The notes under the pieces were generated by a model. That model had not been told where the DNA came from. It ran no database searches and saw nothing but the letters and a program-made list of their open reading frames with translations. Both the position numbers and the translations under genes were made by a program. DNA of 64,000 nt from an uncultured Gammaproteobacteria bacterium (GTDB lineage: Bacteria > Patescibacteriota > Microgenomatia > Levybacterales > GWA1-39-11): assembly GCA_964472415.1 (NCBI GenBank), contig CAYYLC010000004.1, forward strand, positions 33,110 through 97,109, in the 5' to 3' direction. Position 1 is the first letter of the stretch. Each line of letters opens with the position of its first letter. This document shows, piece after piece, positions 18,569 to 62,572 of this stretch.

Positions 18569-18946
18569 CATCTCACCTCGCCAAAATACTACAGATTGCA
18601 AATCTCCATCCTTACTATACCTTCTAAAAAACATCACTCAATAATATAGTGACCTATAATAGAATGCCAAGCGTGAAAGAGAATTATCACCCTATTAACT
18701 ACAGGATACTAATAACTCGTGGATAAGTTTTATTATAAGATGGATATTAAATTATAGGCTATAGATAGCTTCTTAAACCTGATTTGACTCATTCTTACAC
18801 CCTTAAACTTGGATATCATCGTGTTTAAAATATCTTGTCATTTCTTGCGCTCTCAACAGAATGCGAAGGCATAATCCCCACTAACTCCTCAGAATTTCCT
18901 AAAAATGTGCAATACATTCTCCTTAGCCATTATGAATCTTATAGTG

Positions 18947-18975
18947 TTGACTTTATATGATAATCTCGGTACAAT
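18947..18975 (+). promoter_or_regulatory. sigma70-like promoter candidate (TTGACT-17 bp-TACAAT)
   Basis: A near-consensus -35/-10 with exact 17-bp spacing, ~150 bp upstream of the 19123 ORF. Confidence 0.3.
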
Positions 18976-19122
18976 CGCACCATCAGTTCCTTCAAAAAAT
19001 ATTCTTTTTGCATAAATATTTTTTGAAACGCTCTTTAATAATCGTATCGCACCAACTCAGATAGAAGACGAGAATCTCTCGGCTCAATCTACCAAAGAGA
19101 GACACCAGGACAAGAGGAAACT

Positions 19123-19410
19123 ATGATTGAAGCTACTCTTTTCATCGCAGCATGCATCTTTGGGTTTATCGGATCTATCATGGTCATTATTTGGCTTATT
19201 TCCTTGCTCATTCTTAATAGATTCGCATTCCCCAATTTTGCTATTTGTGCATTTTCGCTGTTAGGCATGGGGTTCATTCTGTATGGCAGCGTGTTATTCT
19301 CCGAAGGAATTCCCTGGGGCATCCAGTACATTTTCATGGGTGGTCTATTTATTCCCTTCTGCATCTACTGTAATTACCGGACTACTATAGAAGGAGAAGA
19401 TAAGGTCTAA
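19123..19410 (+). CDS. small hypothetical membrane protein
   Basis: 95 aa with three hydrophobic helices. Preceded by a promoter-like element. Confidence 0.35.
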   Translation: MIEATLFIAACIFGFIGSIMVIIWLISLLILNRFAFPNFAICAFSLLGMGFILYGSVLFSEGIPWGIQYIFMGGLFIPFCIYCNYRTTIEGEDKV

Positions 19411-19475
19411 AATCACTATCACTCTCCACCAATACACATTCTCAAAGCTCTTAATTCAGGCTCAAGGAGGCCATA

Positions 19476-19796
19476 ATGCAGAACCGAATCTCTCTCCAAA
19501 CATTTACGACGCTTGTCATCATGGCAAACAAAAAGGAGAAAAACGTCAAATTTATCAAGCAGCATGATGCAAAAGAACTCTCATATCCATCGAGAAGACA
19601 TAAAAATCATGCACTTATCGTTGCGTTTCAAAGCCATTGTTTCTGGAAAAAAGAAACAGAAGTTGACGGAATTAAGTACCTACTGAGCACACTCAAAGCA
19701 AAATACAGTACTAAATTTCCAAGGCCAGAACCACCTATTGTCATCCGTTGTCCAATTACGATATTGGAGGAGCTCAACACTTCATCTCCAAAATAG
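19476..19796 (+). CDS. hypothetical protein
   Basis: 106-aa ORF with an unusual composition. It may be non-coding. Confidence 0.2.
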   Translation: MQNRISLQTFTTLVIMANKKEKNVKFIKQHDAKELSYPSRRHKNHALIVAFQSHCFWKKETEVDGIKYLLSTLKAKYSTKFPRPEPPIVIRCPITILEELNTSSPK

Positions 19797-19899
19797 GCGA
19801 TACGATTAACCGAAAGGGTGGTAGATGTATCTACCACCCTTTTTCCCACCCAATACTGCAAATATCTCATTTTCATATTTTGTCTCATAGTCTTGAAGA

Positions 19900-20598
19900 T
19901 TGTTTCTATATTTGATAGAATCGAGTCCAGACTTAAGTTATAGGAGGTATCATAGCTCACAAAGCTATAGCGCAAACCAACTATTAAGACTAGGTCGTTC
20001 TTTTACAACCTGGTTCAGGTCACATAATTCAAATCTACTGGGGGAAAACGTGAACAAGAAAACAGAGGCTGAAACACTCGTAGAACTGCAAAAAATCTCA
20101 GCTGGAGAAAATGTTACAAGTGACTTCCGATTCTTCACATCCACTTCTAAAGATCTCTCTGAAAACAAAAGAATCCAATTCAAAGAGATAATCCAAATGC
20201 TTGCCATGGAGCAGGAACAAATGGATATAGATAAGGAAACAGAGGCTGAGACACTCGTTGTAGAACTGCAAGAAATCCCCATTTCGGAGAAGATCGCAGT
20301 CGACCTTAAGTTCTTTGTACCGATTGATTCGGATCTTTCCGAAAACGGAAGAATCCAGATAAAGGAGATGATCCGAATATTTGCGACAGAGCATATGGAA
20401 AAGATCTCACTAGATCAAAAGCCGTATTTTGTAGACTGGGATGAGAGGGGGGAAGACGAGGGATTCGTCCAAGCAGAAAGCATAAGTGCTTTGCTGAAAA
20501 AATACAACCTCACGAAGTACAATGTTACTGTGAAAATCCTTATTCGCAAGCTGGATTCCGCAGCCTTTCCAGTACTTACTGGTGAAGAGAATGGATAA
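19900..20598 (+). CDS. hypothetical protein with internal ~60-aa tandem duplication (true start likely near 20050)
   Basis: Two copies of 'KETEAETLV.ELQ.I...(F/K)FF....DLSEN.RIQ.KE.I..(L/F)A.E'. The first ~50 codons overlap an antisense ORF, so the GTG at ~20050 is a better start. Confidence 0.4.
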   Translation: MFLYLIESSPDLSYRRYHSSQSYSANQLLRLGRSFTTWFRSHNSNLLGENVNKKTEAETLVELQKISAGENVTSDFRFFTSTSKDLSENKRIQFKEIIQMLAMEQEQMDIDKETEAETLVVELQEIPISEKIAVDLKFFVPIDSDLSENGRIQIKEMIRIFATEHMEKISLDQKPYFVDWDERGEDEGFVQAESISALLKKYNLTKYNVTVKILIRKLDSAAFPVLTGEENG

Positions 20599-22446: not shown

Positions 22447-22722
22447 ATGGATAATTTTTATAATGTAAATCAAGCAGCCTTTATCATGAAAGTCCACCCA
22501 CTTACAATTCGCCGATATATTCGCGAAGGTGTATTGAAGGCGGTACGTCTCGGTGGAAATGTTCGGATAAAAGAACAAGATCTTCAGCATTTCATGCGCG
22601 ACTTTGAACCACGAAGCAAAAAAGAGACCTCGCCATTCCGAAAAATCTCACAACAAAAAAAATTCACTACGGCTGACCCATTTTTGAGGTTAAAAGGACG
22701 AGCAGTAACCGTTGACATATAG
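22447..22722 (+). CDS. excisionase/MerR-type HTH DNA-binding protein (candidate antitoxin)
   Basis: 'AAFIMKVHPLTIRRYIREGVLKAVRLGGNVRIKEQDL' is the Xis-family HTH. It lies 5 bp upstream of the PIN-like ORF. Confidence 0.55.
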   Translation: MDNFYNVNQAAFIMKVHPLTIRRYIREGVLKAVRLGGNVRIKEQDLQHFMRDFEPRSKKETSPFRKISQQKKFTTADPFLRLKGRAVTVDI

Positions 22723-22727
22723 ACCAA

Positions 22728-23150
22728 ATGGCATTATCAAAAAAAGTTATTATAGCTCCGGATGCAATATATTCGTATATTGACAGAGCATCTGATAAAC
22801 ATCAGCAAGCTGTCGCATTTTTCCGCTATTTCTCAGAAGAACATTATCGCGTGTTTGTTGATATATTAAGTATTAATGATGTATACAATGATATATATAA
22901 ACGCATGAGCCAAGACCTAGCAAAAGACTTCCTCCGAATTGTCTCTCTCTCAGATATGAATCTTATATACCCTGATGAAGGGGAAATAAAAGCAGCAGTT
23001 AAAGCACTTATAAACTATCGCTCATTGGATCTTACTTTTTCTCAAGCAGCACTTTCAGTGGTAGCATCTCGAAGAAATATTAATCAAGTCGCAACTTTTC
23101 AAACACTTACTCCCCTTTTTGGACTCCAGACATTCTACCTTCCTATCTAA
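22728..23150 (+). CDS. PIN-domain-like protein (candidate VapC-type toxin)
   Basis: 140 aa. The N-terminal 'KVIIAPDAIYSYIDRASDKHQQA' beta-strand plus Asp, the conserved acidic positions and the size are all PIN-like. It is tightly coupled to the HTH gene. Confidence 0.4.
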   Translation: MALSKKVIIAPDAIYSYIDRASDKHQQAVAFFRYFSEEHYRVFVDILSINDVYNDIYKRMSQDLAKDFLRIVSLSDMNLIYPDEGEIKAAVKALINYRSLDLTFSQAALSVVASRRNINQVATFQTLTPLFGLQTFYLPI

Positions 23151-23399: not shown

Positions 23400-24038
23400 T
23401 TATTTCCCTGCTTTTAGCCAATTTGCGCCAGCATATACTATTGGAGAAGACATTACACCCCACATCATTTTAAAAATAAGATACGGAACAGTCATTTGAA
23501 TTATGAAAGCACCAGTAAACTCAGGGGTTAATTTATAAAATGCGAGGAACATGAACACAAATGAGTCAATAGTTAGCGAAAGAAGTGTTGAAGCGTTTGT
23601 TCGTAACCAAAGGAATTTTCCCTCGGTTTGTTTTTTCCAAAAATTAAACGACCATACATCATGAAACTGAGATATCAAAAATGCAACGATTGATGCGGCT
23701 ACTATTCTGGCAGATGTCCCAAATATCGCACTATACTCTGCATCCTGAGTAAATCGACTCGCAGGAGGGAGCCATACAAAAAATATAATGAATGCCAGAA
23801 ACACCGTAAGTGTTACAACTCCTGCAATAACTAACTCCTGAGCCTTTCTCTTACCATACACCTCTTCTACAATATCTGTCATAAGAAATGATAATGGTAC
23901 AATAAGAAACGCTACAGATACCGCAAACGGGCCGAAGGGGATAATTTTCGCACCCAATACATTCATCCCAATCATAAACCCGATAAAAAGCCCAAAGATA
24001 ATAGAAAATCGCATATCGCGTGAAAGAGATAATTTCAT
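23400..24038 (-). CDS. YhhQ/Vut-family (queuosine-precursor transporter-like) membrane protein
   Basis: 212 aa with 6 TM helices. 'GPFAVSVAFLIVPLSFLMTDIVEEVYG' resembles the conserved N-terminal region of YhhQ/DUF165. Confidence 0.5.
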   Translation of the reverse strand: MKLSLSRDMRFSIIFGLFIGFMIGMNVLGAKIIPFGPFAVSVAFLIVPLSFLMTDIVEEVYGKRKAQELVIAGVVTLTVFLAFIIFFVWLPPASRFTQDAEYSAIFGTSARIVAASIVAFLISQFHDVWSFNFWKKQTEGKFLWLRTNASTLLSLTIDSFVFMFLAFYKLTPEFTGAFIIQMTVPYLIFKMMWGVMSSPIVYAGANWLKAGK

Positions 24039-24099
24039 TGCTAGAATTCTAACAAATAGAAGTTAGCTCGACAAGAGAAGATATTTTCTAACTATATTC

Positions 24100-24142
24100 A
24101 AAGACAAAGAAAAAGCCCCGTGCGAAAATATATGCACGGGGC
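24100..24142 (-). terminator. rho-independent terminator (minus strand)
   Basis: A 9-bp GC stem (GCCCCGTGC...GCACGGGGC) with a 10-nt loop, followed on the minus strand by TTTTTCTTTGTCTTT. Confidence 0.55.
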
Positions 24143-24149
24143 TAAAAAT

Positions 24150-24500
24150 AAATTCTCCATGATAGAAATCCTTGATCCGACAGCAATTGTCGGAATAGTA
24201 TATTTCACACGGTTCGTTGGCAAAGAGCTACCTTCGCCTGATGAAGCCTTGCTTTCCCCCACAAGGCGTCGAGATAGCACGAATTGACGTGCTTCGCTCT
24301 GCTAACCTCACGCCTTTCCGGGCTGCGAAGCGATTTGCTTCGCGTTCCAGATATACAGCGCGCTGCTTTTCTGTCATCTGACTCGAGCTATCCTCGAGTC
24401 TCTGACTATACTCATCCCTGGGCGGCAACACACCCTCCTAGTGGTGTTTCTAGGCCAGAACTACTTCTGGCATTCTCAACGAACACAATAATTATATATA
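24150..24500 (-). ncRNA. GC-rich structured segment: candidate unidentified ncRNA or small basic-protein gene (67-aa GTG-start ORF 24228..24431)
   Basis: Local GC is ~52-55% against a ~35% background. There are several perfect hairpins (e.g. GCGAAGC-gattt-GCTTCGC). It is capped by the terminator at 24100..24142. The identity is not resolved. Confidence 0.25.
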
Positions 24501-24557
24501 ATATTATAGGTTTGTCAAGGGGTGAACTGCAGTATCAGAAGGGACACCTTAAGGGAT

Positions 24558-25154
24558 TTATTTATCAAACTCAAAAATACCATAAAAACTCCTTGCATCA
24601 TCAGATCCAGCATATGAATGCAACGGCTGAGGTCTTAGTGTTCGCGCTGGAAGAATGACCTCTTGTTCGGGCTCTATCATCTTCTCTCCAATAATTAACC
24701 CGTTCACTGTCTCGAGAAATTGCCAACTGCGCTCTGATGAGTCCTCATCTGGCAACGACAATCCTTGTTCATCTTTGACATCCAATATGCCATTTTCTTT
24801 CGTAGATATATCCACAAAATGATGCTCGCCATTTACCACCATCCCTATATAGAGCTCTTCGCCATACTTAGTCTTATTATAAGCTGCCTGCACCTCTCCC
24901 TCATCTTCGTTATTAAGCTGAAATTTAAATGTATTTTTATAAGAATTCTCATTTATCCATTCTCCACTTTCCTGAAGGGATTCTAAAAACGGAAGCGCAA
25001 GCGCATCATTCAATACTTTAGCTGCACGCCCTTGAATAGCTTCGCAACTCAATTGATGAGATTCCATGTTCGAATCTGGGGTTGTTTCTCTAGGAGACGA
25101 ATGATCCAAAGCATCGGGAGATACTCTGTATGATAAATCCTCAATTCTAGACAT
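24558..25154 (-). CDS. hypothetical protein (on GC-rich island)
   Basis: 198-aa acidic ORF with a codon composition unlike the surrounding genome. Confidence 0.35.
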   Translation of the reverse strand: MSRIEDLSYRVSPDALDHSSPRETTPDSNMESHQLSCEAIQGRAAKVLNDALALPFLESLQESGEWINENSYKNTFKFQLNNEDEGEVQAAYNKTKYGEELYIGMVVNGEHHFVDISTKENGILDVKDEQGLSLPDEDSSERSWQFLETVNGLIIGEKMIEPEQEVILPARTLRPQPLHSYAGSDDARSFYGIFEFDK

Positions 25155-25354
25155 CTACTTATAGAAAATCACACTCTTCTCCTCTCTGTCAAGAGCTTTT
25201 TCAAAAAAATTTAAACCGAAGACTCCGATTTTTAAGGGATTTAGGAAGAAATAGTGACGGGAAAGATATACAGAAAATTCTGCATAAAACGACTAACGTC
25301 GCACTCCTCCCGCCACTAAAAATGGCACCACCTCAATTCTTTTTGCTTATAGAC

Positions 25355-25789
25355 TCAGACTTTACAAGGTCTAAAACGAACACTCATCAGACAATTTCTA
25401 TCTGGCCGCAAATCACGACATTTAAAATGCCAGATATTTCGCCCTTCCTCTCGCTCACCATTCTGGAACTCACTATTCTGCAACTCAAGAATGGGCTGGA
25501 GAGAAACAGGAACTGGAAGACTATCACCCTCAAGGATGATTATGACTTCAGAAATATACCCCCTCTCATCGAAAACGTGAGGAGAGATCTGCACTGTGTA
25601 TGCTGCACAAGAAACTTGGAATCCTCTCTCAGAAGGCTTCTCATCAAGAAGATTGACAAGATCACCCCCATAAAAAACAGGGATGCTTAGAGACTCGATA
25701 AGAGCCATAGGCGGCTCCCATGGTTCTGTCTGAGGATGGTGCGATGATGATTGCATAGCCTCGGTTGAAATGACCTGCATCGAGTTCAT
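25355..25789 (-). CDS. hypothetical protein (on GC-rich island)
   Basis: 144-aa ORF. It is preferred over the overlapping plus-strand ORF because it is co-oriented with the rest of the island. Confidence 0.3.
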   Translation of the reverse strand: MNSMQVISTEAMQSSSHHPQTEPWEPPMALIESLSIPVFYGGDLVNLLDEKPSERGFQVSCAAYTVQISPHVFDERGYISEVIIILEGDSLPVPVSLQPILELQNSEFQNGEREEGRNIWHFKCRDLRPDRNCLMSVRFRPCKV

Positions 25790-25816
25790 TCTTCTATCCC
25801 TTCTCGCGACAATCGC

Positions 25817-26122
25817 TCATGTATGTCTTGAATCGTACTGATACGTACTAATTCGAAACCATACTCCATACTCTATCAAAGAATATGGTGGTTCAGAATC
25901 AGAGCGCAAGCTCAGCGCTAAATAGTGCTGGAATTGCAATCTTTCACTCTTCTTTATGAATTGTGGCGGGGTTGATTCCTGTTCTACACAGCAGAAAAAA
26001 GATCGTACTATTACCCGACCTCTTATCTTGATAAATTCCCTCCCAACATGTGATTCGTAAAGCAAAAAGTATTGCTCCACGAGAAAAAGACGAGAGATCC
26101 TCCTCCTCTTTTCATGGAGCAA
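25817..26122 (-). CDS. hypothetical protein (on GC-rich island)
   Basis: 101-aa ORF. Confidence 0.25.
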   Translation of the reverse strand: MLHEKRRRISRLFLVEQYFLLYESHVGREFIKIRGRVIVRSFFCCVEQESTPPQFIKKSERLQFQHYLALSLRSDSEPPYSLIEYGVWFRISTYQYDSRHT

Positions 26123-26420
26123 TTTGAAGTGATGTTAATGTACTCTTTCTGATTCGAAATTAATCTTGCAAATTAGAGATAATTTGAATCAAATCGAAAG
26201 TATATTATATACCTTCCTGCAAGATTTATTGCAAATAAGAAATGTGGTGGGAAATAAAAGATTATCTCCTACGAGAACAGCAGATAATAACTATCTCCCA
26301 CCACGAATTTTACCCTCTATGAGGGTACCGTATTTCCTCTGAAAATCGGTGTTATAATGCACCCTTATCTCTTTTTCTAAGAGATAATAAAATCCAGAGC
26401 AAGCTGAATTGTCGACATGT

Positions 26421-26819
26421 TCAGATAGATACGGCAAGGAAAAAGGAATAGCTCCTCCGAAAAAGTCCGGGGAACATTGCCATACCCTGGCTATCAAATC
26501 GTGTCACATATGGGTAGCCACGACCTGATTTTCTCACGAGAACTAACTGGACCTTCTCAAAGAAAAGGGCATGTTGTACCTGAAATTGACTCTGCACTAA
26601 CTGCAGACTGCAATGGATGTCAATCTCCCCTTTCTCCGTCTTGGTCGGCTGAATTGTAAAACTCAGCAGACACTGGGTGAAGGAATGGGATTGGTGAGAT
26701 TGATTTGTGTCTATGCGCAGGTCCCGCGCATAAACCTCTTGGACTATTTCCGAAACTTGCATCGCCTGAGTCTTGTACCGAATCACAACGCCTCCTCGGC
26801 AAACTTCCTTGCCAAACAT
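26421..26819 (-). CDS. hypothetical protein (on GC-rich island)
   Basis: 132-aa ORF. Confidence 0.25.
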   Translation of the reverse strand: MFGKEVCRGGVVIRYKTQAMQVSEIVQEVYARDLRIDTNQSHQSHSFTQCLLSFTIQPTKTEKGEIDIHCSLQLVQSQFQVQHALFFEKVQLVLVRKSGRGYPYVTRFDSQGMAMFPGLFRRSYSFFLAVSI

Positions 26820-27106
26820 TTTGAGACATGATCCCCACAGGCATTGCAGTACTCCTCCTGCATTTGTTGAAAATGATGTTCGTATTCTACGATTGCTCGT
26901 AGGTCACCTTGGACTTTTGTGCTCCATCCACAGGAGCACAAAATACTCCACTTGCCATCCTCAAGTTCTCTCACCTGCACCATTTCGTGTTGTGCAGGCA
27001 CTATGCGTCTTTGAGACACTGATCGACTCCTTTCATTGTAAATACGTGTGATTTCTGCCTCACGAGGAAAACGCATCTCTTGCGTCCTCTTCATGAGGCA
27101 GAACAT
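26783..27106 (-). CDS. hypothetical Cys-containing protein (on GC-rich island)
   Basis: 107 aa with 'CSCGWS' and 'CNACGDH', a possible zinc-binding pair. Confidence 0.3.
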   Translation of the reverse strand: MFCLMKRTQEMRFPREAEITRIYNERSRSVSQRRIVPAQHEMVQVRELEDGKWSILCSCGWSTKVQGDLRAIVEYEHHFQQMQEEYCNACGDHVSKCLARKFAEEAL

Positions 27107-27256
27107 AGAGGGCTGTTAAAGAGCAATTCCCCCAACTAATAACCCATGCAAAACGGATTTATATCGGGGAAATTCAGATGTAAAGTATATCAAATAATTA
27201 GTATTATGTCAATGACTATGGGATTATTTTTGAACGTAAGTCTATAAGATTTTATG

Positions 27257-27328
27257 AGCCGAAGGTGGGATTTGAACCCACGACTTACTCTTTACGAAAG
27301 AGTTACTCTACCTCTGAGTTACTTCGGC
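27257..27328 (-). tRNA. tRNA-Thr (anticodon CGU)
   Basis: Minus-strand cloverleaf. Acceptor GCCGAAG/CTTCGGC, anticodon stem ACTCT/AGAGT with loop TTCGTAA, T arm GTGGG-TTCAAAT-CCCAC. Confidence 0.85.
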
Positions 27329-27906
27329 ACAATAATTTTCAAATTATAACAAAAAATTATCCTTATCTCCTTCTCAAAGAATAATTATTTCTTCGCCTCA
27401 AATTATTGAAAAAGAGAGGAGGTACGTATATACATTCAGCCTCACGAATATATTATCAAATATAGTCAAATTACATCAATTTACAACCGATCTATATCAG
27501 AGACTTGAGGGAATTTTGTTATCAACTTAATTTGAGGTGAACAAAACAATACGAATCACATGTTGAGGAATAATATCTGGCTCCCAAGTCTTTATAACGC
27601 ATCGATTTCCCCTTATATCCAGGTGAGTAGGACTCATCCGCCAACCAAGGCTGACAGATATATGGCCCGTACACTCGAATAAACTGAGATTACTCGTATT
27701 GATTAGTCGTAGAGAAAAACAATTATGCGTTTTAAAGAGCTTTAGAGCCATAGCCAGAATACCCTAGAACCAGAATAAAGTCAAGCAAATATACTGAAAA
27801 TTTTATCTATCATTATTTATATAGAAATATAACTTACAGTATAGTAATAATTCATATTTTTCTATCACATTCTCACAAAAAATATCTATTTTTGCTAAAA
27901 TAACAT

Positions 27907-35030: not shown

Positions 35031-36542
35031 ATGATTTCTAGAATTTATCTTCTTCTGCCTTTGCTGGGCATAAGCATCGGTATTACAGGGCTCTTCCTTT
35101 TTGTTTTCACGAAAAATGCTCACGCAGCAACACTTATAAACGCAAGTAACACTATTACAACATCTCGCCCTTCAGCCGCTTCACCCTTTTCTTCAGATGT
35201 TTCTGGTACTGACACTACAGCAGCGATTCTGAATAATGGATCGTTCTATCTTGCATCAGATTCTGCACAAATCAGACAAGGGCAAAGTGGCGCACTTATT
35301 GATGCAGCAACAATTATCGCTTCACAATCTGCAGCACTCACTACTGTGTATTTTTCAGAGGCTGTCGGCGCTGGGGCTGGAGCTGACTCAGATGTTCTCA
35401 TTGTACCAATCACTGCTATGCATAGAATCCAATTTACTATACCTCAAACGATTCCTACCTCTGGAGACATTGTACTCACCTTCCCAATACTTGAGACTGG
35501 AGATGCAAATAATGAAGCTTCTCCTTCTGCCTCTACATTCCAGTTCAACGACCTCGATACGAACGCTGCCACACTCATTCACGTAGTAGATGATGGAACG
35601 GATATCACCGCAAATATTACTGCCGCTGCCACAAATCCTGCGAGCGCTGGGGACTCACCAGAGATCATCATTACCCTTAATAGTGGAAGCATTGTCTCAG
35701 GAAGCGTTGTAGATATATTTATCGGTTGCACAACTATTGCAGCTGGTGACTGCTCTGCCCAGACACCGACACTCATTAACCCGACAAAGACTGCATCAGC
35801 TGGGACTGCTGATGTCTGGAAAATAAATGCTCAGACTCGAGATGCATCTGATGTGAATCTCGATAACGCTACTATTGCTATCGGCACTATTGAATCTGTT
35901 ACCGTTCGGGCAACTGTAGATCCAACACTCTCCTTCACTATTTCTGGGATTGGAAATGGATCAGCAATTAATCTCGGAAACACGACCGGATGCTTGCAAA
36001 CGGAAACAACAAATGCTGGGATTGATTCTACTTCTACTGAGGTAAACCTTGGACTCCTCGCTAATACTCCATCAGGAACTGATGTAAAAGTAGGAAATAT
36101 TGCAGCACAAAGAATCAACATAACCACGAATGCTGCTGGAGGATATATTCTCGCTGCAACATCATCCGGACAACTCATCAACCCAGAAACCGGATTTTTC
36201 CTTAACTCCTCTACCACTCCGACTGCATTCCCTTCAAGTGGCGCTGACTGGTTCGGTATTCATCCGTGTGGACTTGATGTAACTACTGCCACGTGGAATT
36301 CTACTGCAAGTACTGCATGTAGCAGCTTTGTAAGTGGTTCAACAGATCCGATTTGTCTGTATGCGTGGCCTACACAGAGTGCACCACTTACTCTTGCATC
36401 AGATGCAGTAGGACCTATTGGTAACTCACTTGTTACTGGAAATGGAGTAATTTCTGTTGCGTACGCCGCGTCTGTAGATCCGGGAATCCCCCCAGGATCA
36501 TATAGAACAGTAATAACGTATGTGGCAACACCAGTATTCTAG
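35031..36542 (+). CDS. secreted S/T-rich surface protein with WxL-like C-terminal domain (CscB/C-like), paralog A
   Basis: Signal peptide (AHA|A) and a C-terminal ~180 aa with 'LSFTISGIGNGSAINLGN...' and a terminal 'YRTVITYVATPVF'. These parallel WxL domain features ('l.l.svP..inFG', a terminal 'Y.GTLTWTL...P'). Confidence 0.45.
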   Translation: MISRIYLLLPLLGISIGITGLFLFVFTKNAHAATLINASNTITTSRPSAASPFSSDVSGTDTTAAILNNGSFYLASDSAQIRQGQSGALIDAATIIASQSAALTTVYFSEAVGAGAGADSDVLIVPITAMHRIQFTIPQTIPTSGDIVLTFPILETGDANNEASPSASTFQFNDLDTNAATLIHVVDDGTDITANITAAATNPASAGDSPEIIITLNSGSIVSGSVVDIFIGCTTIAAGDCSAQTPTLINPTKTASAGTADVWKINAQTRDASDVNLDNATIAIGTIESVTVRATVDPTLSFTISGIGNGSAINLGNTTGCLQTETTNAGIDSTSTEVNLGLLANTPSGTDVKVGNIAAQRINITTNAAGGYILAATSSGQLINPETGFFLNSSTTPTAFPSSGADWFGIHPCGLDVTTATWNSTASTACSSFVSGSTDPICLYAWPTQSAPLTLASDAVGPIGNSLVTGNGVISVAYAASVDPGIPPGSYRTVITYVATPVF

Positions 36543-37572: not shown

Positions 37573-39051
37573 TTGACAGAAGATTTTATTTCTGCGCACA
37601 ATAATACAATGAAGATAATTTTTGTACTTATGATATCCGCAATTCTCTTTTTTGTAAAAATCTCTCATGCGAATGCGGCAGACCTTATCAATACTCGTGA
37701 CACACTCTCAACTTCTCGCCCATCAGCAGCTTCTCCTTTTACCAGTAATGCAGCCTCTAATGACCGGACTATTACAATTTTGAATAACGGATCGTTCTAT
37801 CTTGCATCAGATTCTGCACAAATAATCCGACACTCAACAGGCACAATTCTCGCAACTGATATTCCTATATCTTCTCAATCTGCGGGGCTTTCTACTATCT
37901 ATCTCGGAGATGATATCGGTACGAATACAACTTCAGGAGATGATATATTGCTCGTTCCAATTACCTCAACTCATACCATACGATTTACTACTGCCTCAGA
38001 AATCCCCGCTGGTGGAGATATACTCCTTACATTTCCGGGAGCAGCGAATAACTCTGCTTCTCCTTCTGCAACTACGTTTGCCTTTAATGGGCTAAATAGC
38101 ACTGGTGGACTTCCAGGAGGAATTTCTAGTCATAACATTTCATGTAATACAAATTCCTTTGTTTTTTCTCCACAAATCATGTGTGAAACAACAGGCTCAG
38201 TTCCGGCTGGCACTACAATAACTATTCTTATTGGCTGCACTGCACAGTCCGGTGGAAATTGTACGACTCAATCTCCGACACTCATCAATCCAACAAAGAC
38301 TACAACCACTGGAACCGCAGATATCTGGAAAATATTTATCCAGACCCGAGATGCAACAGACATAGAACTCGACTCTGCAACCGTTGCAATCGGCACAATA
38401 GATTCTGTTACTGTTCGTGCGTCTATTGATCCCTCTCTTACCTTTGCAATTACAGGAATCGGAAATGGTTCAGCAGTTAACCTTGGAAACACGACCGGAT
38501 GCTTGCAAACGGAAATTACCAATTCGGGCCTCAATTCAACCGCAACTGAAATAAATCTTGGACTCCTTGCAGATACTCCATCAGGAATTGATGTAAGAGT
38601 AGGAAATATTGCAGCACAACGAATCAATATTAGCACCAATGCTGCGAATGGCTATACGCTATCAGCAACATCATCCGGTCAACTTATCAATCCTACCACT
38701 GGATTTTTCCTCGCATCTTCTACCACTCCAACCGCATTCCCTTCAAATAGTTCAGATTGGTTCGGTATCCATCCGTGTGGACTTGATGTAACTACTGCCA
38801 CGTGGAATTCTACTGCAAGTACTAGCTGCAATACGTATATTTCGGGTTCAACAGATCCGATTTGTCTGTATGCGTGGCCTACACAGAGTGCACCACTTAC
38901 TCTTGCATCAGATGCAGTAGGACCTATTGGTAACTCACTTGTTACTGGAAATGGAGTAATTTCTGTTGCGTACGCCGCGTCTACTGATGCAGGCGTTCCC
39001 CCAGGAAGTTATTCTACAGTTATCACCTATACTGCAACTCCAGTCTTCTAG
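37573..39051 (+). CDS. secreted S/T-rich surface protein with WxL-like C-terminal domain, paralog A'
   Basis: Same architecture as 35031..36542. The 3' region contains 138 identical nucleotides. Confidence 0.45.
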   Translation: MTEDFISAHNNTMKIIFVLMISAILFFVKISHANAADLINTRDTLSTSRPSAASPFTSNAASNDRTITILNNGSFYLASDSAQIIRHSTGTILATDIPISSQSAGLSTIYLGDDIGTNTTSGDDILLVPITSTHTIRFTTASEIPAGGDILLTFPGAANNSASPSATTFAFNGLNSTGGLPGGISSHNISCNTNSFVFSPQIMCETTGSVPAGTTITILIGCTAQSGGNCTTQSPTLINPTKTTTTGTADIWKIFIQTRDATDIELDSATVAIGTIDSVTVRASIDPSLTFAITGIGNGSAVNLGNTTGCLQTEITNSGLNSTATEINLGLLADTPSGIDVRVGNIAAQRINISTNAANGYTLSATSSGQLINPTTGFFLASSTTPTAFPSNSSDWFGIHPCGLDVTTATWNSTASTSCNTYISGSTDPICLYAWPTQSAPLTLASDAVGPIGNSLVTGNGVISVAYAASTDAGVPPGSYSTVITYTATPVF

Positions 39052-56400: not shown

Positions 56401-59400
56401 AATAACACAACCACAGACTTTCTGATCGGAGGGACAGCAACAAGTAGTGCGAAATTTGCATTAACAAATGTGGATTCTGGTCCTCCTACATTTACTGTAG
56501 GGAGTGGGGATCCGATATTGAAAGGGACGTATAATACGAGCGGAGGTGTTGAGGACATCTATGTATCTGGAAAATATGTGTATGTAGCGGATGGCAGCTC
56601 TGGCCTACAGATAATAGACGCATCGGATCCTTCATCTCCAACACTTGTTGGAACATACGATACAAGTGGGAATGCACTCGGGGTTCATGTATCGGGTAAA
56701 TATGCATACATCGCAGACGATACTGTAGGACTTCGAATCATCGACATCTCGGATCCTTCATCTCCAACACTTGTTGGAACATACAATACAAGTGGGAATG
56801 CTCGGAGCATTTATGTCTCAGGAAAATATGCGTATGTAGCAGACGGATTTTCTGGCCTACATATCATTGACATCTCGGATCCTTCGTCACCAACTCTTAC
56901 GGGAACATATGACACAAGTGGATACAGCTACGATGTCTATGTCTCAGGAAAATATGCGTATGTAGCAGATGATAGTGACTTGAAGATCATCGACATCTCG
57001 GATCCTTCATCTCCAACACTTGTTGGAACATACAATACAAGTGGGAATGCTCGGAGCATTTATGTCTCAGGAAAATATGCGTATGTAGGAGATCTAAGCT
57101 CTGGGATTCAGATTGTAAACATCTCGGATCCTTCGTCACCAACTCTTACAGCAGATGGTCCTGGAGGAGCTCATGATGTCTATGTCTCAGGAAAATATGC
57201 ATATGTGCCAAATGGAACGGGCGACTTTCAGCTTATTGACATCTCGGATCCTTCGTCACCAACTCTTACGGGAACATATGACACAAGTGGAGACGCTCGG
57301 AGCATTTATGTCTCAGGAAAATATGCGTATGTAGGAGATCTAAGCTCTGGTCTTCAAATTCTCGAACTCCCCGGCATAGACACTCCGACACTACATACAG
57401 GGAATATTGAAACAGGAAGTATTACCATAACTGAAAATGCAGATATAGGAAACAACCTATATGTACATAATGGACTGAATGTAGGAAATGGTGGTATTTA
57501 TTCACAGGGAGCACTCGGTATATTTTCAGGAACTTCTGGGACAAATCTTATCCAAGGAAATCCTACTGGAAAAGCACTTCTTACCTTGAATAATACCGGT
57601 GGATCTGATATCTTCACCGCCTCTGCTTCCGGTACTACTCTCTTTACCATAACGAATGCTGGAGGATTACGGCTTGGAACAGATGAAGGGACTTCTGGTG
57701 AGTGCCTGCTTTCAGGTGGTGTTGGAGCAGGTGCAAGCTGGGGATCGTGTGGCGCATCTTCCCAATGGACTACCACTGGATCTGATATTTACTACAATAC
57801 CGGGAATGTGGGAATCGGAACATCTGACATAACTGCAAAATTTGAAATATTATCCAACCTTGGCACTGGACATGCAGCATCAATTTCTGCTATAACTGCC
57901 AAATCATCACTTCTCGTCACCAATGATGGAACCGGAGATCTTATCACCGCATCTGCCTCTGGTAGCACAAAGTTCACTGTAGATAATGAGGGAAATATTT
58001 ACCTTTATGGGCAGATTATCGGTATGGGGGCTGACTTTGCTGAATATTATGAAAAAGAAGATTCTGATGAAGAATTTCTTGCAGGAAGTTTAGTATGTCT
58101 TGCAATAAACGGTACTGTTACAAATTGCAAAAATTCAGATACTACTCAGAAATTACTCGGCGTCGTATCAGACAATGCAATTATTGCAGGTAATGGAGAT
58201 AAAAAGGACGACAATAACTATGTCCTTGTAGGGCTTTTAGGACAGCTCCATGTACGGGTCACAGGAGATATACAAGCTGGAGATCCACTCACGATGTCTA
58301 ATCTTTCTGGCGTCGCAGAAAAAGCAACACAAGAAGGATTTATCATCGGATATGCCATGGAATCAAGTTCAAACACCAAAGATCGAATTATTACATCAAT
58401 TAAGTCGACGTACTACAATCCAAATCTCGCGCTCAATATCGCAGGTGACAATGCAGAAGAATTTGCTGCATCGCTCAATATAAAAAATACTGATGGAACA
58501 ATTGCTATTACTGATGTATCAGGAGCTATCATAAAACGTGCAGAGGCATTCTCACACGTCATCTCAGCAAATATAAATGCCGGAATTGTAAACGCACAAA
58601 AAGTTACGGGAAATGTTATAACAGGTACTACTGGTGCATTCCAAAGCCTTACTGCAACAACTGCAAACATCACCTCTGCCTCATTCAATTCGATTAGTAT
58701 TGGTTCAGAAAATGTTCTTATAGCAGGAACTTCTCTTCGCGACTATATCGCAGAGATCGTTGCAGAAAACATTGAAAATGTAAACTTTTCAAATGGTGAG
58801 GAAATCATTTCCCCGCTTGCCTCAATCGACCAGATAAATACGAATATTATCTCCCCACTTGCTGATGACAGTAGTGTGGAGATCGAACTGAAAAAAGATA
58901 GTATTGCGATACATAATACTGAAACTCAAGAAACCGTAGCTGAAATTGATCATGAGGGGAATGCTCGTTTTATCGGAGACATTGAAGCAAATGATGCAAC
59001 ATTTTCAGGGACACTATCAGCTGATAGAATAATCGCAGGAAATATCGATGGACTTGACGAGAAAATCTCTTCTATCGCAGGAAGCCTTGCACAGAACCAT
59101 CCTACTCCATCCTCACCTTCAGCAGATATCACTTCTACAGACGAATTTCAGGTGGGGAATCTCTATGCAGATCTTGGGATTTATTCGGAAGGATTAACGA
59201 TCCTGGGCACTACTACCACAAGTCAACTTACTGCAATGGATAGTATTGCAGTAGGGACTGGATTCGTGATAAACGAAAATTCAATCAATACATTGGGGAA
59301 AACACTTGAAATTCAACCGCTCCGTCAAGGAGCCATCAGCTTCATGGCTGGAAAAGTAATTATTGATACCGACGGAAACATGAATATCAATGGGAATCTT

Positions 59401-61261: not shown

Positions 61262-62572
61262 ATGGAGCAACTTAAATCCATCAAACAAGAACTTATCATT
61301 GTCGGAATCGGAATCTTAGGAATATTTGCCATAATTATTGGTACTATCCCTACAAACATCAGCGCACAAGGGGAAACGAATCTCCGGGTCCCGAAAGAAC
61401 TCGTGGTTACTCCAGGAGAACATGATACTGTCTATGTTTATGAGCTCTCATTCAGGTGGAATCTTTTCACCTGGTATGGGATTGACCAAACACCAGACGA
61501 GGCGCTTGCGACAAGCACAATGGAGAACGGGACAGATCCTGAATCTGTCATCACTGCTATCTATAGCTTTGATGCAGCAACACAAAGTTGGAAAGGGTAT
61601 TTTCCCCGGATGGATCACATCCCTGGGGCAAATGATCTCGAACTCCTCGAGAAGGGAAAAGGATACTTTATCGCTATTCATGAAGTATTCGATACAAAAA
61701 ACGATACAGATATCCTCTGGGGAGTTTGGTCAAATCCAATTGAGAAAACTCCTACACCCACAGAAACCATAGCGGAAACCCCGAGTGCAACAATCACAGA
61801 AACAGTTACTCAGGAGCCGACTTCAACACCAACACCGACACCGACAAGAACAGTTACGAATACACCAACCGTAACGCCAACAATGACAGCAACAATAACG
61901 GCAACCACAACACCGACACCAAGCCCTACAAACACCGTAACACCAACACCAACACCAACACCAACACCAACACCAACTCATACTCAGGAGCCGACTTCAA
62001 CACCAACACCAACACCGACAAGAACAGTTACGAATACACCAACCGTAACGCCAACAATGACAGCAACAATAACGGCAACCACAACACCGACACCAAGCCC
62101 TACAAACACCGTAACACCAACACCAACTAATACTCAGGAGCCGACTTCAACACCAACACCGAACTGTGAACGACTTGGGGGATCTACGTATACGGGTAAC
62201 TTCATCAATGAGCCACCGGATGCGCAAGATGTTTTCGTAACTCACCGACGCCCTTGCCAAGGGGATATAGTAACAGTGCGTGCGACGTTCAGCCCCGACT
62301 CACCAATTTCCGGTATGTATTTCAGATTTGCATTGGGAGATGAGTCTGAGGGACGATCAATGTCATGCATGGGAAAATATCCTATGCAAAACGTCGGGAA
62401 TAATGTATGGGAAGCAACGGTAGCCTATACGCAAACTGCACGCTATGCATTCGGCTATCAAATAGTAGCTGCAAATCCAGAGGGCAATATTGCCTTTACA
62501 GAACTTTCAACAGGAGGTAGCGGGGGATATTTCAATTACTCTAGCTGCAAGAATCCACCGGACGCACCATAA
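61262..62572 (+). CDS. membrane-anchored secreted protein with Thr/Pro-rich tandem repeats and Cys-containing C-terminal domain
   Basis: N-terminal TM helix, then a (TPTP)n linker carrying a perfect ~49-aa duplication. The C-terminal domain has 6 Cys. Confidence 0.45.
61806..62165. repeat. intragenic tandem repeat (~150-170 bp unit, ~2.2 copies) encoding the TP-rich linker
   Basis: 'actcaggagccgacttcaacaccaacacc...caaacaccgtaacaccaacaccaac' is repeated near-identically. A third partial copy starts at ~62133. Confidence 0.7.

What the first reader, a model, noticed from the sequence alone, without database searches (positions are those of the whole stretch)
24100..24500. Terminator-capped GC-rich structured segment: unidentified ncRNA or tiny basic protein
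Immediately upstream (on the minus strand) of a strong intrinsic terminator (GCCCCGTGC-N10-GCACGGGGC plus a T-run) lies ~350 nt of ~53% GC sequence. It contains multiple perfect hairpins (GCGAAGC-GATTT-GCTTCGC; GTGCTTCGCTCTGC...).

The only ORF is 67 aa, GTG-initiated and Arg/Lys-rich. The segment is too long to be a 3' UTR of the upstream gene.

I could not match it by eye to RNase P, tmRNA, SRP or 6S consensus motifs. It may be a lineage-specific structured RNA or a small nucleic-acid-binding protein gene.
Basis: seen in the sequence. Interest (0 to 1): 0.5.

Follow-up and report, generated by a model that had tools for sequence, protein, structure and literature searches.

The report
Orphan structured RNA gene candidate
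A 380-base stretch, bracketed by the best promoter and best terminator in the window, most likely makes a tightly folded non-coding RNA; it matches no known RNA family and no relatives were found, so it is a well-delimited candidate of unknown role.

Summary
On the minus strand, the only perfect TTGACA-N16-TATAAT promoter in the 64 kb (24518-24491) and the only long GC-rich hairpin with a U-tail (24143-24105) enclose about 380 nt.

This segment has the highest GC content of any non-repetitive stretch in the window. It holds 7 perfect hairpins against 0.6 expected, and it folds into a well-defined 273-nt closed multi-helix domain (z about -6).

Tests for protein coding are negative:
- GC content is flat across codon positions.
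- Coding scores are near zero.
- All six frames have open stretches of 60-71 aa.
- The 67-aa ORF has no homologue among 1.84 billion representative proteins.

Rfam 15 and ARAGORN find no RNase P, tmRNA, SRP, 6S, intron or riboswitch. The downstream yhhQ gene has its own conserved leaderless promoter, so the segment is not its leader.

No homologue turned up in relatives' syntenic loci, phage, plasmid, viral or metagenome collections. The segment lies in a hypervariable island of orphan genes in a Levybacteria-like CPR (candidate phyla radiation) genome.

Best reading: a stand-alone, strongly expressed orphan ncRNA gene (about 0.55). Function is not established, and neither covariation nor expression could be tested. 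Interest is moderate.

The parts
24491..24518 (-). Sigma-70 promoter TTGACA-N16-TATAAT (12 of 12). The predicted transcription start is at G24486 or G24484.
   Evidence: the only perfect match in 64 kb on both strands, with 0.06 expected from shuffles. It sits exactly at the 5' edge of the GC-rich structured segment.
24212..24484 (-). A 273-nt closed multi-helix domain. P1 (GUUCGUU 24484-24478 with AACGAAC 24218-24212) encloses three 5' hairpins, a long arm (GAUGAG 24416-24411 with UUCAUC 24245-24240) carrying four branches, and a 3' hairpin stacked on P1.
   Evidence: MFE -114.1 kcal/mol, z = -5.97, and 0 of 200 shuffles fold as well; 72 of 87 MFE pairs have probability above 0.9, against 44 of 88 on the plus strand, and there are 9 G-U pairs. 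GC is 53.5%.
24454..24471 (-). Perfect hairpin GCCAGAA-GUAG-UUCUGGC.
24380..24400 (-). Perfect hairpin GACUCGAG-GAUAG-CUCGAGUC. It is preceded by UCAGAGACU, which resembles the group I intron R element.
   Evidence: The resemblance was recalled from memory and is not backed by any RF00028 match.
24325..24343 (-). A third GCGAAGC copy at 24297-24291 offers an alternative partner.
24276..24293 (-). Perfect hairpin AGCACG-UCAAUU-CGUGCU.
24246..24267 (-). Hairpin GCCUUG-UGGGGGAAAG-CAAGGC with a 10-nt G-rich loop.
24219..24238 (-). Hairpin GGCGAAGG-UAGC-UCUUUGCC, directly abutting the 3' strand of P1.
24144..24211 (-). AU-rich 3' region holding the perfect hairpin UCCGACA-AUUGC-UGUCGGA (24194-24176), flanked by single-stranded linkers.
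   Evidence: hairpin -9.9 kcal/mol.
24105..24143 (-). Intrinsic terminator: 10-bp perfect stem, 10-nt loop, UUUUUCUUU tail.
   Evidence: -20.5 kcal/mol and the only such site in the window. It works in one direction only, because the plus strand has no T-run after the stem.
24228..24431 (-). The 67-codon GTG ORF, judged not to be translated. AGGAGG at 24439-24434 lies 2 nt before the GTG and 5 nt before a TTG.

Best explanation
The segment is a stand-alone gene for a non-coding RNA of about 375-380 nt, transcribed from the minus strand.

Shown directly by the sequence:
- A perfect consensus sigma-70 promoter fires at about 24486/24484.
- The transcript can fold into a 273-nt closed multi-helix domain (24484-24212).
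- An AU-rich tail with one more hairpin follows.
- Transcription ends at a strong intrinsic terminator (about 24105), some 65 nt before the separate, leaderless promoter of yhhQ.

Inferred:
- The RNA is abundant, because both its promoter and its terminator are the best in the 64 kb.
- It acts in trans through its folded body, as a protein-binding or sequestering scaffold in the manner of 6S/Ms1 or CsrB-type RNAs, rather than as an antisense regulator or an mRNA.
- It is lineage-restricted cargo of a hypervariable island of orphan genes next to tRNA-Thr and yhhQ in a Levybacteria-like CPR bacterium.

The partner and the cellular role are unknown.
For: - Promoter: the only 12/12 TTGACA-N16-18-TATAAT in the window, with 0.06 expected.
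- Terminator: the only hairpin in the window with a perfect GC-rich stem of at least 8 bp and a T-run, -20.5 kcal/mol, minus strand only.
- GC content 53.5% against 39.4% background.
- 7 perfect hairpins against 0.6 expected; 0 of 1000 shuffles reach this; densest site in the window.
- Folding z = -6.8 for the whole unit and -5.97 for the domain alone.
- The transcribed strand is 17 kcal/mol more stable than its complement. 72 of 87 pairs have probability above 0.9, against 44 of 88 on the complement, and there are 9 G-U pairs.
- No coding signal. GC1/2/3 is .54/.53/.56, whereas real genes here and in relatives' islands are strongly periodic. The coding score is -0.07 with host codon usage and 0.00 with island codon usage, against 0.13-0.39 for real genes. 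All six frames are open for 60-71 aa.
- No homologue of the ORF, and no gene was called there by three independent annotations.
- yhhQ has its own extended -10 box (TGTTAGAAT) 7 nt before its ATG. Equivalent -10 boxes precede yhhQ in relatives L013, L015 and L024, so the RNA is not its leader.
Against: - No homologue was found by any route, so there is no covariation support and no evidence of purifying selection. The routes were nhmmer and a covariance model against 18 loci from relatives, phage and plasmid BLAST, viral pattern scans and two metagenome scans.
- Expression is untested.
- The stems are nearly all perfect Watson-Crick, and the loops include no GNRA or UNCG tetraloops. This looks evolutionarily young or DNA-symmetric rather than like an old tertiary-folded RNA. 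The plus strand also scores z = -5.3.
- The flanking genes are orphans, so the island may be recently acquired and only loosely functional.
- An AGGAGG lies just upstream of GTG/TTG. GC-rich, SD-led (Shine-Dalgarno-led), GTG-initiated small genes do occur at the equivalent position in relatives.
- The protein-scaffold mechanism is pure inference. There is no repeated loop motif: 9 GGA against 7.8 +/- 2.3 expected.
Confidence: 0.55

Rival explanations
1. It is the mRNA of a small basic protein: the 67-aa GTG ORF, or 66 aa from the TTG. An AGGAGG Shine-Dalgarno would drive translation, with a structured 50-nt 5' UTR and a 120-nt 3' UTR.
For: - AGGAGG at 24439-24434 lies 2 nt before the GTG and 5 nt before the TTG.
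- Relatives carry GC-rich small genes with strong SD sequences and GTG/ATG starts immediately upstream of yhhQ, some not called by annotation.
- The product is basic with an RRR tail.
- AlphaFold2 gives one fairly confident helix, residues 21-39.
Against: - GC is flat across codon positions, and coding scores are near zero under both host and island codon usage. The relatives' small genes score 0.13-0.29 and are strongly periodic.
- The ORF is no longer than the open stretches in the other five frames.
- Zero hits at E<=0.001 among 1.84 billion representatives, and none in the metagenome scan.
- pTM is 0.29 and mean pLDDT 68.
- The structure and hairpin excess extend beyond the ORF on both sides.
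- The coding regions of the relatives' small genes are unstructured, with z between 0.2 and -1.5.
Confidence: 0.12
2. It is non-functional or barely functional DNA: a recently acquired or decaying GC-rich fragment of a mobile element. It happens to be transcribed, and its hairpins are not under selection as an RNA.
For: - It sits in a hypervariable island whose neighbouring genes (198 aa and 144 aa) have no homologue among 5.8 billion proteins.
- Relatives have completely different content at the same place.
- No homologue of the segment was found anywhere.
- The perfect stems show little sign of long evolutionary wear.
Against: - Chance does not give 7 perfect hairpins, a domain closed by a long-range helix, the only consensus promoter and the only strong terminator of the window all in register.
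- No translated similarity to any island protein, so it is not a recognisable pseudogene.
- The sequence is identical in independent assemblies, so it is not an assembly artefact.
Confidence: 0.15
3. It is a cis-acting part of a neighbouring mRNA: either a long structured 3' UTR of the upstream 198-aa gene, or a leader or riboswitch with a terminator platform controlling yhhQ.
For: - No terminator lies between the stop of the 198-aa gene (24558) and the segment, so read-through transcripts would carry it.
- The terminator lies 65 nt upstream of yhhQ, a queuosine-precursor transporter gene of a type often placed under riboswitch control (established knowledge).
Against: - The segment has its own consensus promoter.
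- yhhQ has its own extended -10 box 7 nt before the ATG (a leaderless arrangement), with equivalents in relatives L013, L015 and L024 that lack the segment.
- No riboswitch or leader model matches beyond the terminator hairpin.
- No related element lies upstream of yhhQ in 15 other loci.
Confidence: 0.08
4. It is a highly divergent version of a housekeeping RNA (6S/Ms1-like, RNase P, SRP or tmRNA) that current models miss in this CPR lineage.
For: - The size, the strong promoter and terminator, the 5'-3' closing stem and the high GC in an AT-rich genome are all typical of stable housekeeping RNAs.
- None of these RNAs is present elsewhere in the window.
- 6S RNAs are notoriously hard to detect by sequence (established knowledge).
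Against: - No Rfam match even at E<=10 on an 800-nt query, and ARAGORN is negative.
- No P4/CR-I motif, no T-arm or tRNA-like domain, no SRP domain IV motif, and a branched rather than rod-like fold.
- A housekeeping RNA should not sit in a hypervariable orphan island.
Confidence: 0.05
5. It is a DNA-level element, in which hairpins form in single-stranded DNA or palindromes bind proteins. Examples would be a single-strand replication origin or a recombination site of an integrated element.
For: - The stems are almost all perfect Watson-Crick, and both strands score strongly (z = -5.3 and -5.97).
- GCGAAGC, a motif known to form very stable DNA mini-hairpins (own knowledge), occurs repeatedly.
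Against: - The long-range and secondary helices use 9 G-U pairs. The ensemble is well defined only on the transcribed strand.
- The promoter and terminator bracket the segment in the same orientation.
- No replication, relaxase or integrase gene is nearby.
- No repeat of the segment occurs elsewhere in the window.
Confidence: 0.04

Closest known systems
6S RNA / Ms1-type abundant RNA-polymerase-binding RNAs
   Same: A stand-alone gene with a strong promoter and intrinsic terminator. The 5' and 3' ends are closed by a helix. The RNA is heavily structured and is presumed abundant and to act as a folded body.
   Different: No match to any 6S model. The predicted fold is a 7-way branched domain, not a rod with a central bubble. 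Binding to RNA polymerase is untested. The segment sits in a variable island rather than being conserved.
CsrB/RsmZ-type multi-hairpin protein-sponge RNAs
   Same: About 350-nt RNA made of many short hairpins and ending in a terminator. Sequestration of a protein is a plausible mode of action.
   Different: There is no repeated loop motif: 9 GGA against 7.8 +/- 2.3 expected. Every hairpin has a different sequence. No csrA context was seen.
GC-rich intergenic 'orphan' structured RNAs found by GC/IGR screens in AT-rich genomes (raiA, ROOL, OLE, HEARO and similar classes in Rfam)
   Same: The same signature: an unusually GC-rich, long, gene-free segment in an AT-rich genome with strong predicted structure.
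   Different: None of those families matches. Those classes are defined by covariation across many genomes. Here only one genotype is known.
Group I intron catalytic core (R element, P7)
   Same: UCAGAGACU followed by a GACU...AGUC pairing resembles the R/S elements of P7 (recalled from memory). Group I introns are common in Patescibacteria (PMC13011429).
   Different: There is no RF00028 hit at E<=10. The two would-be P7 strands are separated only by a 5-nt loop, leaving no room for P3' and P8. The motif lies 80 nt from the 5' end, too early for P1-P6. A promoter, not an exon, lies upstream, and there are no tRNA halves.
Type I toxin mRNAs (long structured 5' UTR plus a tiny hydrophobic ORF)
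   Same: A structured RNA of about 380 nt with a 20-codon hydrophobic ORF (MENLFLAPCIYFRTGLFLCL) near the 3' end, preceded by AAGGA. A palindromic -10 box could drive an antisense RNA.
   Different: The ORF runs through the terminator stem. Its stop codon (24100-24098) lies beyond the expected termination point, so the terminated RNA would lack a stop. U-rich terminator sequence encodes Phe and Leu by default.

Membership tests
Bacterial RNase P RNA | Match to the Rfam RNase P covariance models, with P4 and the CR-I GGAAAGUCC and CR-V ACAGAAnnnGGCUUA motifs. | tested here: not met
   No hit at gathering score or at E<=10. The motifs are absent from the sequence.
tmRNA | A tRNA-like domain (acceptor stem with G-U, T-arm) and a tag reading frame. 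| tested here: not met
   ARAGORN finds only 5 tRNAs. There is no Rfam tmRNA hit. P1 has no G-U pair and no T-loop is present.
SRP RNA (small or Bacillus-type) | Domain IV: a GNAR tetraloop with conserved symmetric and asymmetric loops, and a match to the Rfam models. | tested here: not met
   CCCGGAAAGG does not give the closing pairs or the adjacent AGCA motif.
6S RNA | A rod-like fold of about 180-200 nt with a large central bubble, and a match to the Rfam 6S models. | tested here: not met
   No hit. The MFE and centroid structures are a branched 273-nt domain.
6S RNA | Binds the RNA polymerase holoenzyme and templates pRNA. | not testable with these tools
   This needs biochemistry.
Group I intron | A P3-P9 core with P7, P3' and P8 in order, flanking exons, and a match to RF00028. 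| tested here: not met
   No RF00028 hit at E<=10. The architecture is impossible. A promoter lies immediately upstream. No split tRNA is present.
Riboswitch or leader of yhhQ (for example preQ1) | A known aptamer, with the terminator acting as expression platform on the only transcript that reaches the gene. | tested here: not met
   No aptamer model matches; only terminator-level noise is seen. yhhQ has its own leaderless promoter between the terminator and the ATG, with equivalents in relatives. The element is absent upstream of yhhQ in 15 other loci.
Small protein-coding gene | Codon-position periodicity and codon usage better in frame than out of frame. | tested here: not met
   GC1/2/3 is .54/.53/.56. 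Coding scores are -0.07 (host usage) and 0.00 (island usage), against 0.13-0.39 for real genes.
Small protein-coding gene | Homologous proteins exist. | tested here: not met
   No hits in 1.84 billion representatives. No relative in the metagenome scan. No Pfam, PHROG or PADLOC hit.
Small protein-coding gene | A credible translation start. | tested here: inconclusive
   AGGAGG is present, but 2 nt from the GTG and 5 nt from the TTG. Most genes in this genome are leaderless and start with ATG.
Type I toxin-antitoxin | A small hydrophobic ORF lying wholly within the transcript, plus an antisense RNA. | tested here: not met
   The stop codon of the 20-aa ORF lies beyond the terminator's U-tract. 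An antisense promoter is only a palindromic -10 guess.
CsrB/Rsm-type sponge RNA | Many repeated GGA motifs in hairpin loops. | tested here: not met
   9 GGA against 7.8 +/- 2.3 in shuffles. The loops are all different.
Stand-alone bacterial ncRNA gene (generic kind) | Its own promoter and intrinsic terminator enclosing a non-coding segment. | tested here: met
Stand-alone bacterial ncRNA gene (generic kind) | Structure beyond chance on the transcribed strand. | tested here: met
   z = -5.97 and -6.8. Hairpin excess. Strand asymmetry.
Stand-alone bacterial ncRNA gene (generic kind) | Conservation with compensatory base changes. | tested here: inconclusive
   No homologue was retrieved. The whole genomes of relatives could not be searched.
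Stand-alone bacterial ncRNA gene (generic kind) | A detectable transcript of the predicted size. | not testable with these tools
   No transcriptome data were available.

The most novel reading that the evidence does not exclude
The segment is the founding member of a new class of abundant structured RNA, with a roughly 270-nt multi-helix core, in an uncultivated Microgenomates/Levybacteria-like lineage. It would be carried on a hypervariable tRNA-adjacent island and act as a protein-binding or decoy RNA, for example in conflict with mobile elements or phages or in control of the transcription or translation machinery. On this reading its relatives were missed only because they diverge fast and the genomes of the lineage could not be searched in full.
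Probability: 0.3. Interest if true: 0.55.

Novelty: new member of a known kind. Interest (0 to 1): 0.35.

Why it matters
Non-coding RNAs of candidate-phyla-radiation bacteria are almost unexplored. These organisms have tiny genomes, so an RNA gene of about 380 nt with the strongest expression signals in 64 kb is unlikely to be idle.

If it is real, it offers a cleanly delimited construct with a defined start, end and fold for structure probing and partner pull-downs. It would also show that the variable islands next to tRNA genes in these genomes carry RNA cargo as well as orphan proteins.

If it is not conserved and not expressed, it is a useful caution: GC-rich, hairpin-dense islands with perfect signals can arise in young acquired DNA.

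Tried and rejected
Known families, none matching:
- Rfam 15 on the whole window at gathering score, and on 23900-24700 and 24500-27420 at permissive E-values. Only terminator-level noise appeared.
- ARAGORN for tmRNA.

The 67-aa ORF, no support:
- phmmer against 1.84 billion representatives: nothing.
- Pfam, PHROGs and PADLOC: nothing.
- AlphaFold2 on the single sequence: pLDDT 68, pTM 0.29.

Searches for homologues, all empty:
- Exact-protein contig look-ups returned only the same genotype.
- yhhQ-based loci from GTDB genomes.
- Six contig look-ups of yhhQ relatives at 74-79% identity.
- nhmmer and blastn against these loci.
- tblastx and tblastn.
- A single-sequence covariance model, R1, with filters on and off. 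The best hit was 10 bits and covered hairpins only.
- Phage and plasmid BLAST.
- Four viral k-mer scans, which gave only random 17-mer hits.
- A metagenome scan with peptide patterns, and one with a 22-base gapped DNA pattern. Neither scan recovered even the source sequence, so that collection probably does not hold this organism.
- The neighbouring 198-aa and 144-aa proteins, used as anchors, are orphans.

Other ideas rejected:
- DGR template/variable repeat or any paralogue in the window: none.
- Antisense targets among 50 gene starts in the window: no better than shuffled controls.
- Group I intron (the idea came from PMC13011429), type I toxin, CsrB-like sponge and yhhQ riboswitch readings. 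Each was rejected on defining features; see the membership table.
Full report
THE OBSERVATION

- The terminator is AGCCCCGUGC-N10-GCACGGGGCU followed by UUUUUCUUU (24143-24105), with a stem of -20.5 kcal/mol. The built-in scanner missed it only because it allows loops of at most 8 nt.
- With a relaxed scan (perfect GC-rich stem of at least 8 bp, loop of 3-10 nt, T-run), it is the only such site on either strand of the 64-kb window.
- Upstream of it, 24212-24484 is 53.5% GC in a window that averages 39.4%. It ranks in the top 1% of 300-nt windows. Its only rival is a Thr/Pro repeat inside a gene.
- The quoted hairpin GCGAAGC-AAAUC-GCUUCGC is real. In all there are seven perfect hairpins with stems of 6-10 bp in 387 nt.
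- Dinucleotide shuffles give 0.6 +/- 0.75, and never more than 4 in 1000. No other 387-nt stretch of the window has as many.

Two details are wrong.
- The 67-aa ORF is not the only ORF. ORFs of 60, 55, 54 and 124 aa overlap the segment, and all six frames are open for 60-71 codons.

A perfect TTGACA-N16-TATAAT promoter lies at 24518-24491, at the exact 5' edge of the GC-rich block. It is the only 12/12 match in the window, where 0.06 is expected.

The best promoter and the best terminator of the 64 kb therefore enclose about 380 nt in the same orientation. The predicted start is G24486 or G24484 and the predicted end is about 24105.

STRUCTURE

- The whole unit folds at -153 kcal/mol (z = -6.8). 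The inner 273 nt fold at -114 kcal/mol (z = -5.97, with 0 of 200 shuffles as good).
- The fold is a closed domain. P1 (GUUCGUU with AACGAAC, 266 nt apart, pair probabilities 0.86-1.0) encloses three 5' hairpins, a long arm (GAUGAG with UUCAUC) carrying four branches, and a hairpin stacked on the 3' strand of P1.
- An AU-rich tail follows, holding one more perfect hairpin (UCCGACA-AUUGC-UGUCGGA), and then the terminator.
- The transcribed strand is 17 kcal/mol more stable than its complement. It uses 9 G-U pairs, and 72 of its 87 pairs have probability above 0.9, against 44 of 88 for the complement. This fits an RNA read from the minus strand.
- Caveats: the short stems are almost all perfect Watson-Crick pairs, none of the loops is a GNRA or UNCG tetraloop, and the complement still scores z = -5.3.

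IS IT CODING?

- The 67-codon ORF has flat GC across codon positions (.54/.53/.56).
- Host genes give .49/.40/.33. The small GC-rich genes found at the same place in relatives give, for example.62/.34/.62.
- Its frame-specific codon score is -0.07 with host usage and 0.00 with island usage. That is no better than other frames of the segment, while real genes score 0.13-0.39.
- phmmer against 1.84 billion representative proteins finds nothing. Pfam, PHROGs and PADLOC find nothing.
- None of the source annotations calls a gene there.
- AlphaFold2 predicts only two helices, the longer spanning residues 21-39 (pLDDT 68, pTM 0.29).
- The one point in favour is an AGGAGG lying 2 nt before the GTG and 5 nt before a TTG. 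But genes in this genome are mostly leaderless, with an extended -10 box (TGnTAnAAT) 5-8 nt before an ATG.
- A 20-codon hydrophobic ORF across the terminator has its stop codon beyond the termination point. A 24-codon ORF opens at the 5'-terminal GUG. Both look incidental.

KNOWN RNA FAMILIES

- Rfam 15 at gathering score finds only five tRNAs in the window.
- At E<=10 on an 800-nt query, only models that align to the terminator hairpin appear, such as L10_leader and anti-hemB, all far below threshold.
- ARAGORN finds no tmRNA.
- By eye there is no RNase P P4/CR-I motif, no T-arm, and no SRP domain IV motif. The fold is branched rather than 6S-like.
- UCAGAGACU plus a GACU...AGUC pairing recalls the R and S elements of group I introns, which are frequent in Patescibacteria (PMC13011429). 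Against that reading, RF00028 does not match. The two strands are separated only by a pentaloop, leaving no room for P3' and P8. The motif is too close to the 5' end. A promoter, not an exon, lies upstream.

CONTEXT

The genome is bacterial and CPR-like. It encodes LeuRS, ComEC, PEGA and LytR_C proteins and has a leaderless gene style. The closest named yhhQ homologue is from Candidatus Levybacteria, at 68% identity.

The gene downstream is yhhQ (Vut_1, a queuosine-precursor transporter; 24038-23400). It has its own promoter, TTGTCG-N17-TAGAAT with a TG extension, ending 7 nt before the ATG. Equivalent -10 boxes (TGCTAGAAT, TGCTACAAT) precede yhhQ in relatives L013, L015 and L024. The structured segment is therefore not a yhhQ leader.

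The gene upstream is a 198-aa orphan. It has no terminator of its own, so its read-through transcripts would also carry the segment.

The stretch from yhhQ to tRNA-Thr(CGU) (24.0-27.3 kb) is richer in GC and full of orphans. The 198-aa and 144-aa proteins have no homologue among 5.8 billion proteins.

In relatives whose yhhQ is 74-79% identical, the syntenic slot (BacA, CAP, tRNA, [island], yhhQ, beta-lactamase, giant Kelch protein) is also GC-rich. It holds unrelated content there: small SD-led genes, some GTG-initiated and unannotated, including cold-shock-like proteins with basic tails, preceded by a conserved structured leader of their own. None of this is similar to the window segment at DNA, translated or structural level.

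SEARCH FOR HOMOLOGUES

Every route came back empty.
- Identical copies only, in Logan, ENA, JGI and NCBI assemblies of the same genotype.
- No paralogue in the window.
- No hit in phage or plasmid collections.
- Only random 17-mers in viral contigs.
- Nothing in two metagenome scans.
- The metagenome scans did not recover even the source sequence, and the whole genomes of relatives could not be searched. Absence of homologues is therefore weak evidence.

HOW IT MOST LIKELY WORKS

Shown: an autonomous transcription unit on the minus strand; a non-coding character; and a well-defined 273-nt multi-helix fold plus a 3' hairpin and terminator.

Inferred:
- High abundance, from the consensus promoter.
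- Action in trans as a folded RNA, meaning a protein-binding or sequestering scaffold, rather than by antisense pairing. No gene start in the window pairs with it better than with shuffled controls.
- Status as lineage-restricted island cargo.

I put 0.55 on 'functional stand-alone ncRNA gene'. The specific scaffold mechanism deserves much less.

Rivals and their weights:
- Young or decaying acquired DNA with no real function: 0.15.
- Small-protein mRNA: 0.12.
- cis-acting 3' UTR or leader: 0.08.
- Divergent housekeeping RNA: 0.05.
- DNA-level hairpin element: 0.04.

VERDICT

It belongs to a known kind of feature (a stand-alone bacterial ncRNA gene) but to no known family.

Without homologues or expression data it remains an orphan candidate. 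Interest is moderate (0.35). It would rise to about 0.55 if conservation with covariation or an abundant transcript were shown.

Noticed in passing
window, many gene starts (e.g. 7883, 9436, 24038, 27907, 28997, 61042): Most genes lack a Shine-Dalgarno sequence. Instead they have an extended -10 box (TGnTAnAAT) 5-8 nt before the ATG, which suggests mostly leaderless mRNAs in this CPR genome.
   Followed up: partly
L018:2230-2700, L026:3002-3340, L028:3620-3960 (partly L024:3917-4110): Relatives share a conserved promoter and a long structured 5' leader upstream of small cold-shock-like genes in the island next to yhhQ. Its elements are the hairpins CCCCGAUAUUAUCGGGG and GGUCCGAUGUnACAUCGGACC, and a long stem with a variable apex. 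In L018 it scores z = -7.4. It has no Rfam match and is unrelated to the window RNA.
   Followed up: partly
L024:4107-4890 and L013:3106-3900: A conserved two-gene GC-rich cassette: a protein of about 108 aa, then a cold-shock-like protein of about 120 aa with a basic tail. Both have strong SD sequences. In L024 both genes start with GTG and neither is called by the source annotation.
   Followed up: partly
window 24040-27330: The stretch between yhhQ and tRNA-Thr(CGU) is a GC-richer island of same-strand orphan genes (198, 144, 132 and 107 aa). The 198-aa and 144-aa proteins have no homologue among 5.8 billion proteins. The 132-aa and 107-aa ORFs have high GC3 and poor host-type coding scores.
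   Followed up: partly
window 26130-26420 and 27000-27250, minus strand: The 200-nt folding z-scores here are even stronger than in the finding (-7.3 to -8.6). By eye these are long AT-rich terminator-like hairpins and a promoter between the island operons, not a GC-rich RNA. No Rfam match.
   Followed up: partly
window 24039-24051: TGCTAGAATTCTAACA is palindromic around the yhhQ -10 box. The plus strand therefore also carries a perfect extended -10 (TGCTAGAAT), which could drive a transcript antisense to the structured RNA.
   Followed up: no
window 24403-24395, minus strand: UCAGAGACU matches the group I intron R-element core as recalled from memory. The architecture and Rfam both argue against an intron.
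   Followed up: partly
window 22447-23150, plus strand: An HTH_17/excisionase-like 91-aa gene is followed 5 nt later by a 140-aa gene with no family match. This looks like a toxin-antitoxin-like pair next to tRNA-Thr(UGU).
   Followed up: no
window 35031-36542 vs 37573-39051; 56485-57395; 61751-62162; 63212-63761: Tandem paralogous genes lie 2509 nt apart (72-96% identical segments). Three large surface-protein-like genes contain internal repeat arrays of 126, 48 and 138 nt.
   Followed up: no
window 18570-19900: A long stretch with no ORF of 120 aa or more lies after tRNA-Tyr. It contains small ORFs, one with an AGGAGG SD at 19465, and a terminator-like hairpin at about 19815-19840. It is hairpin-dense but AT-rich.
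   Followed up: no
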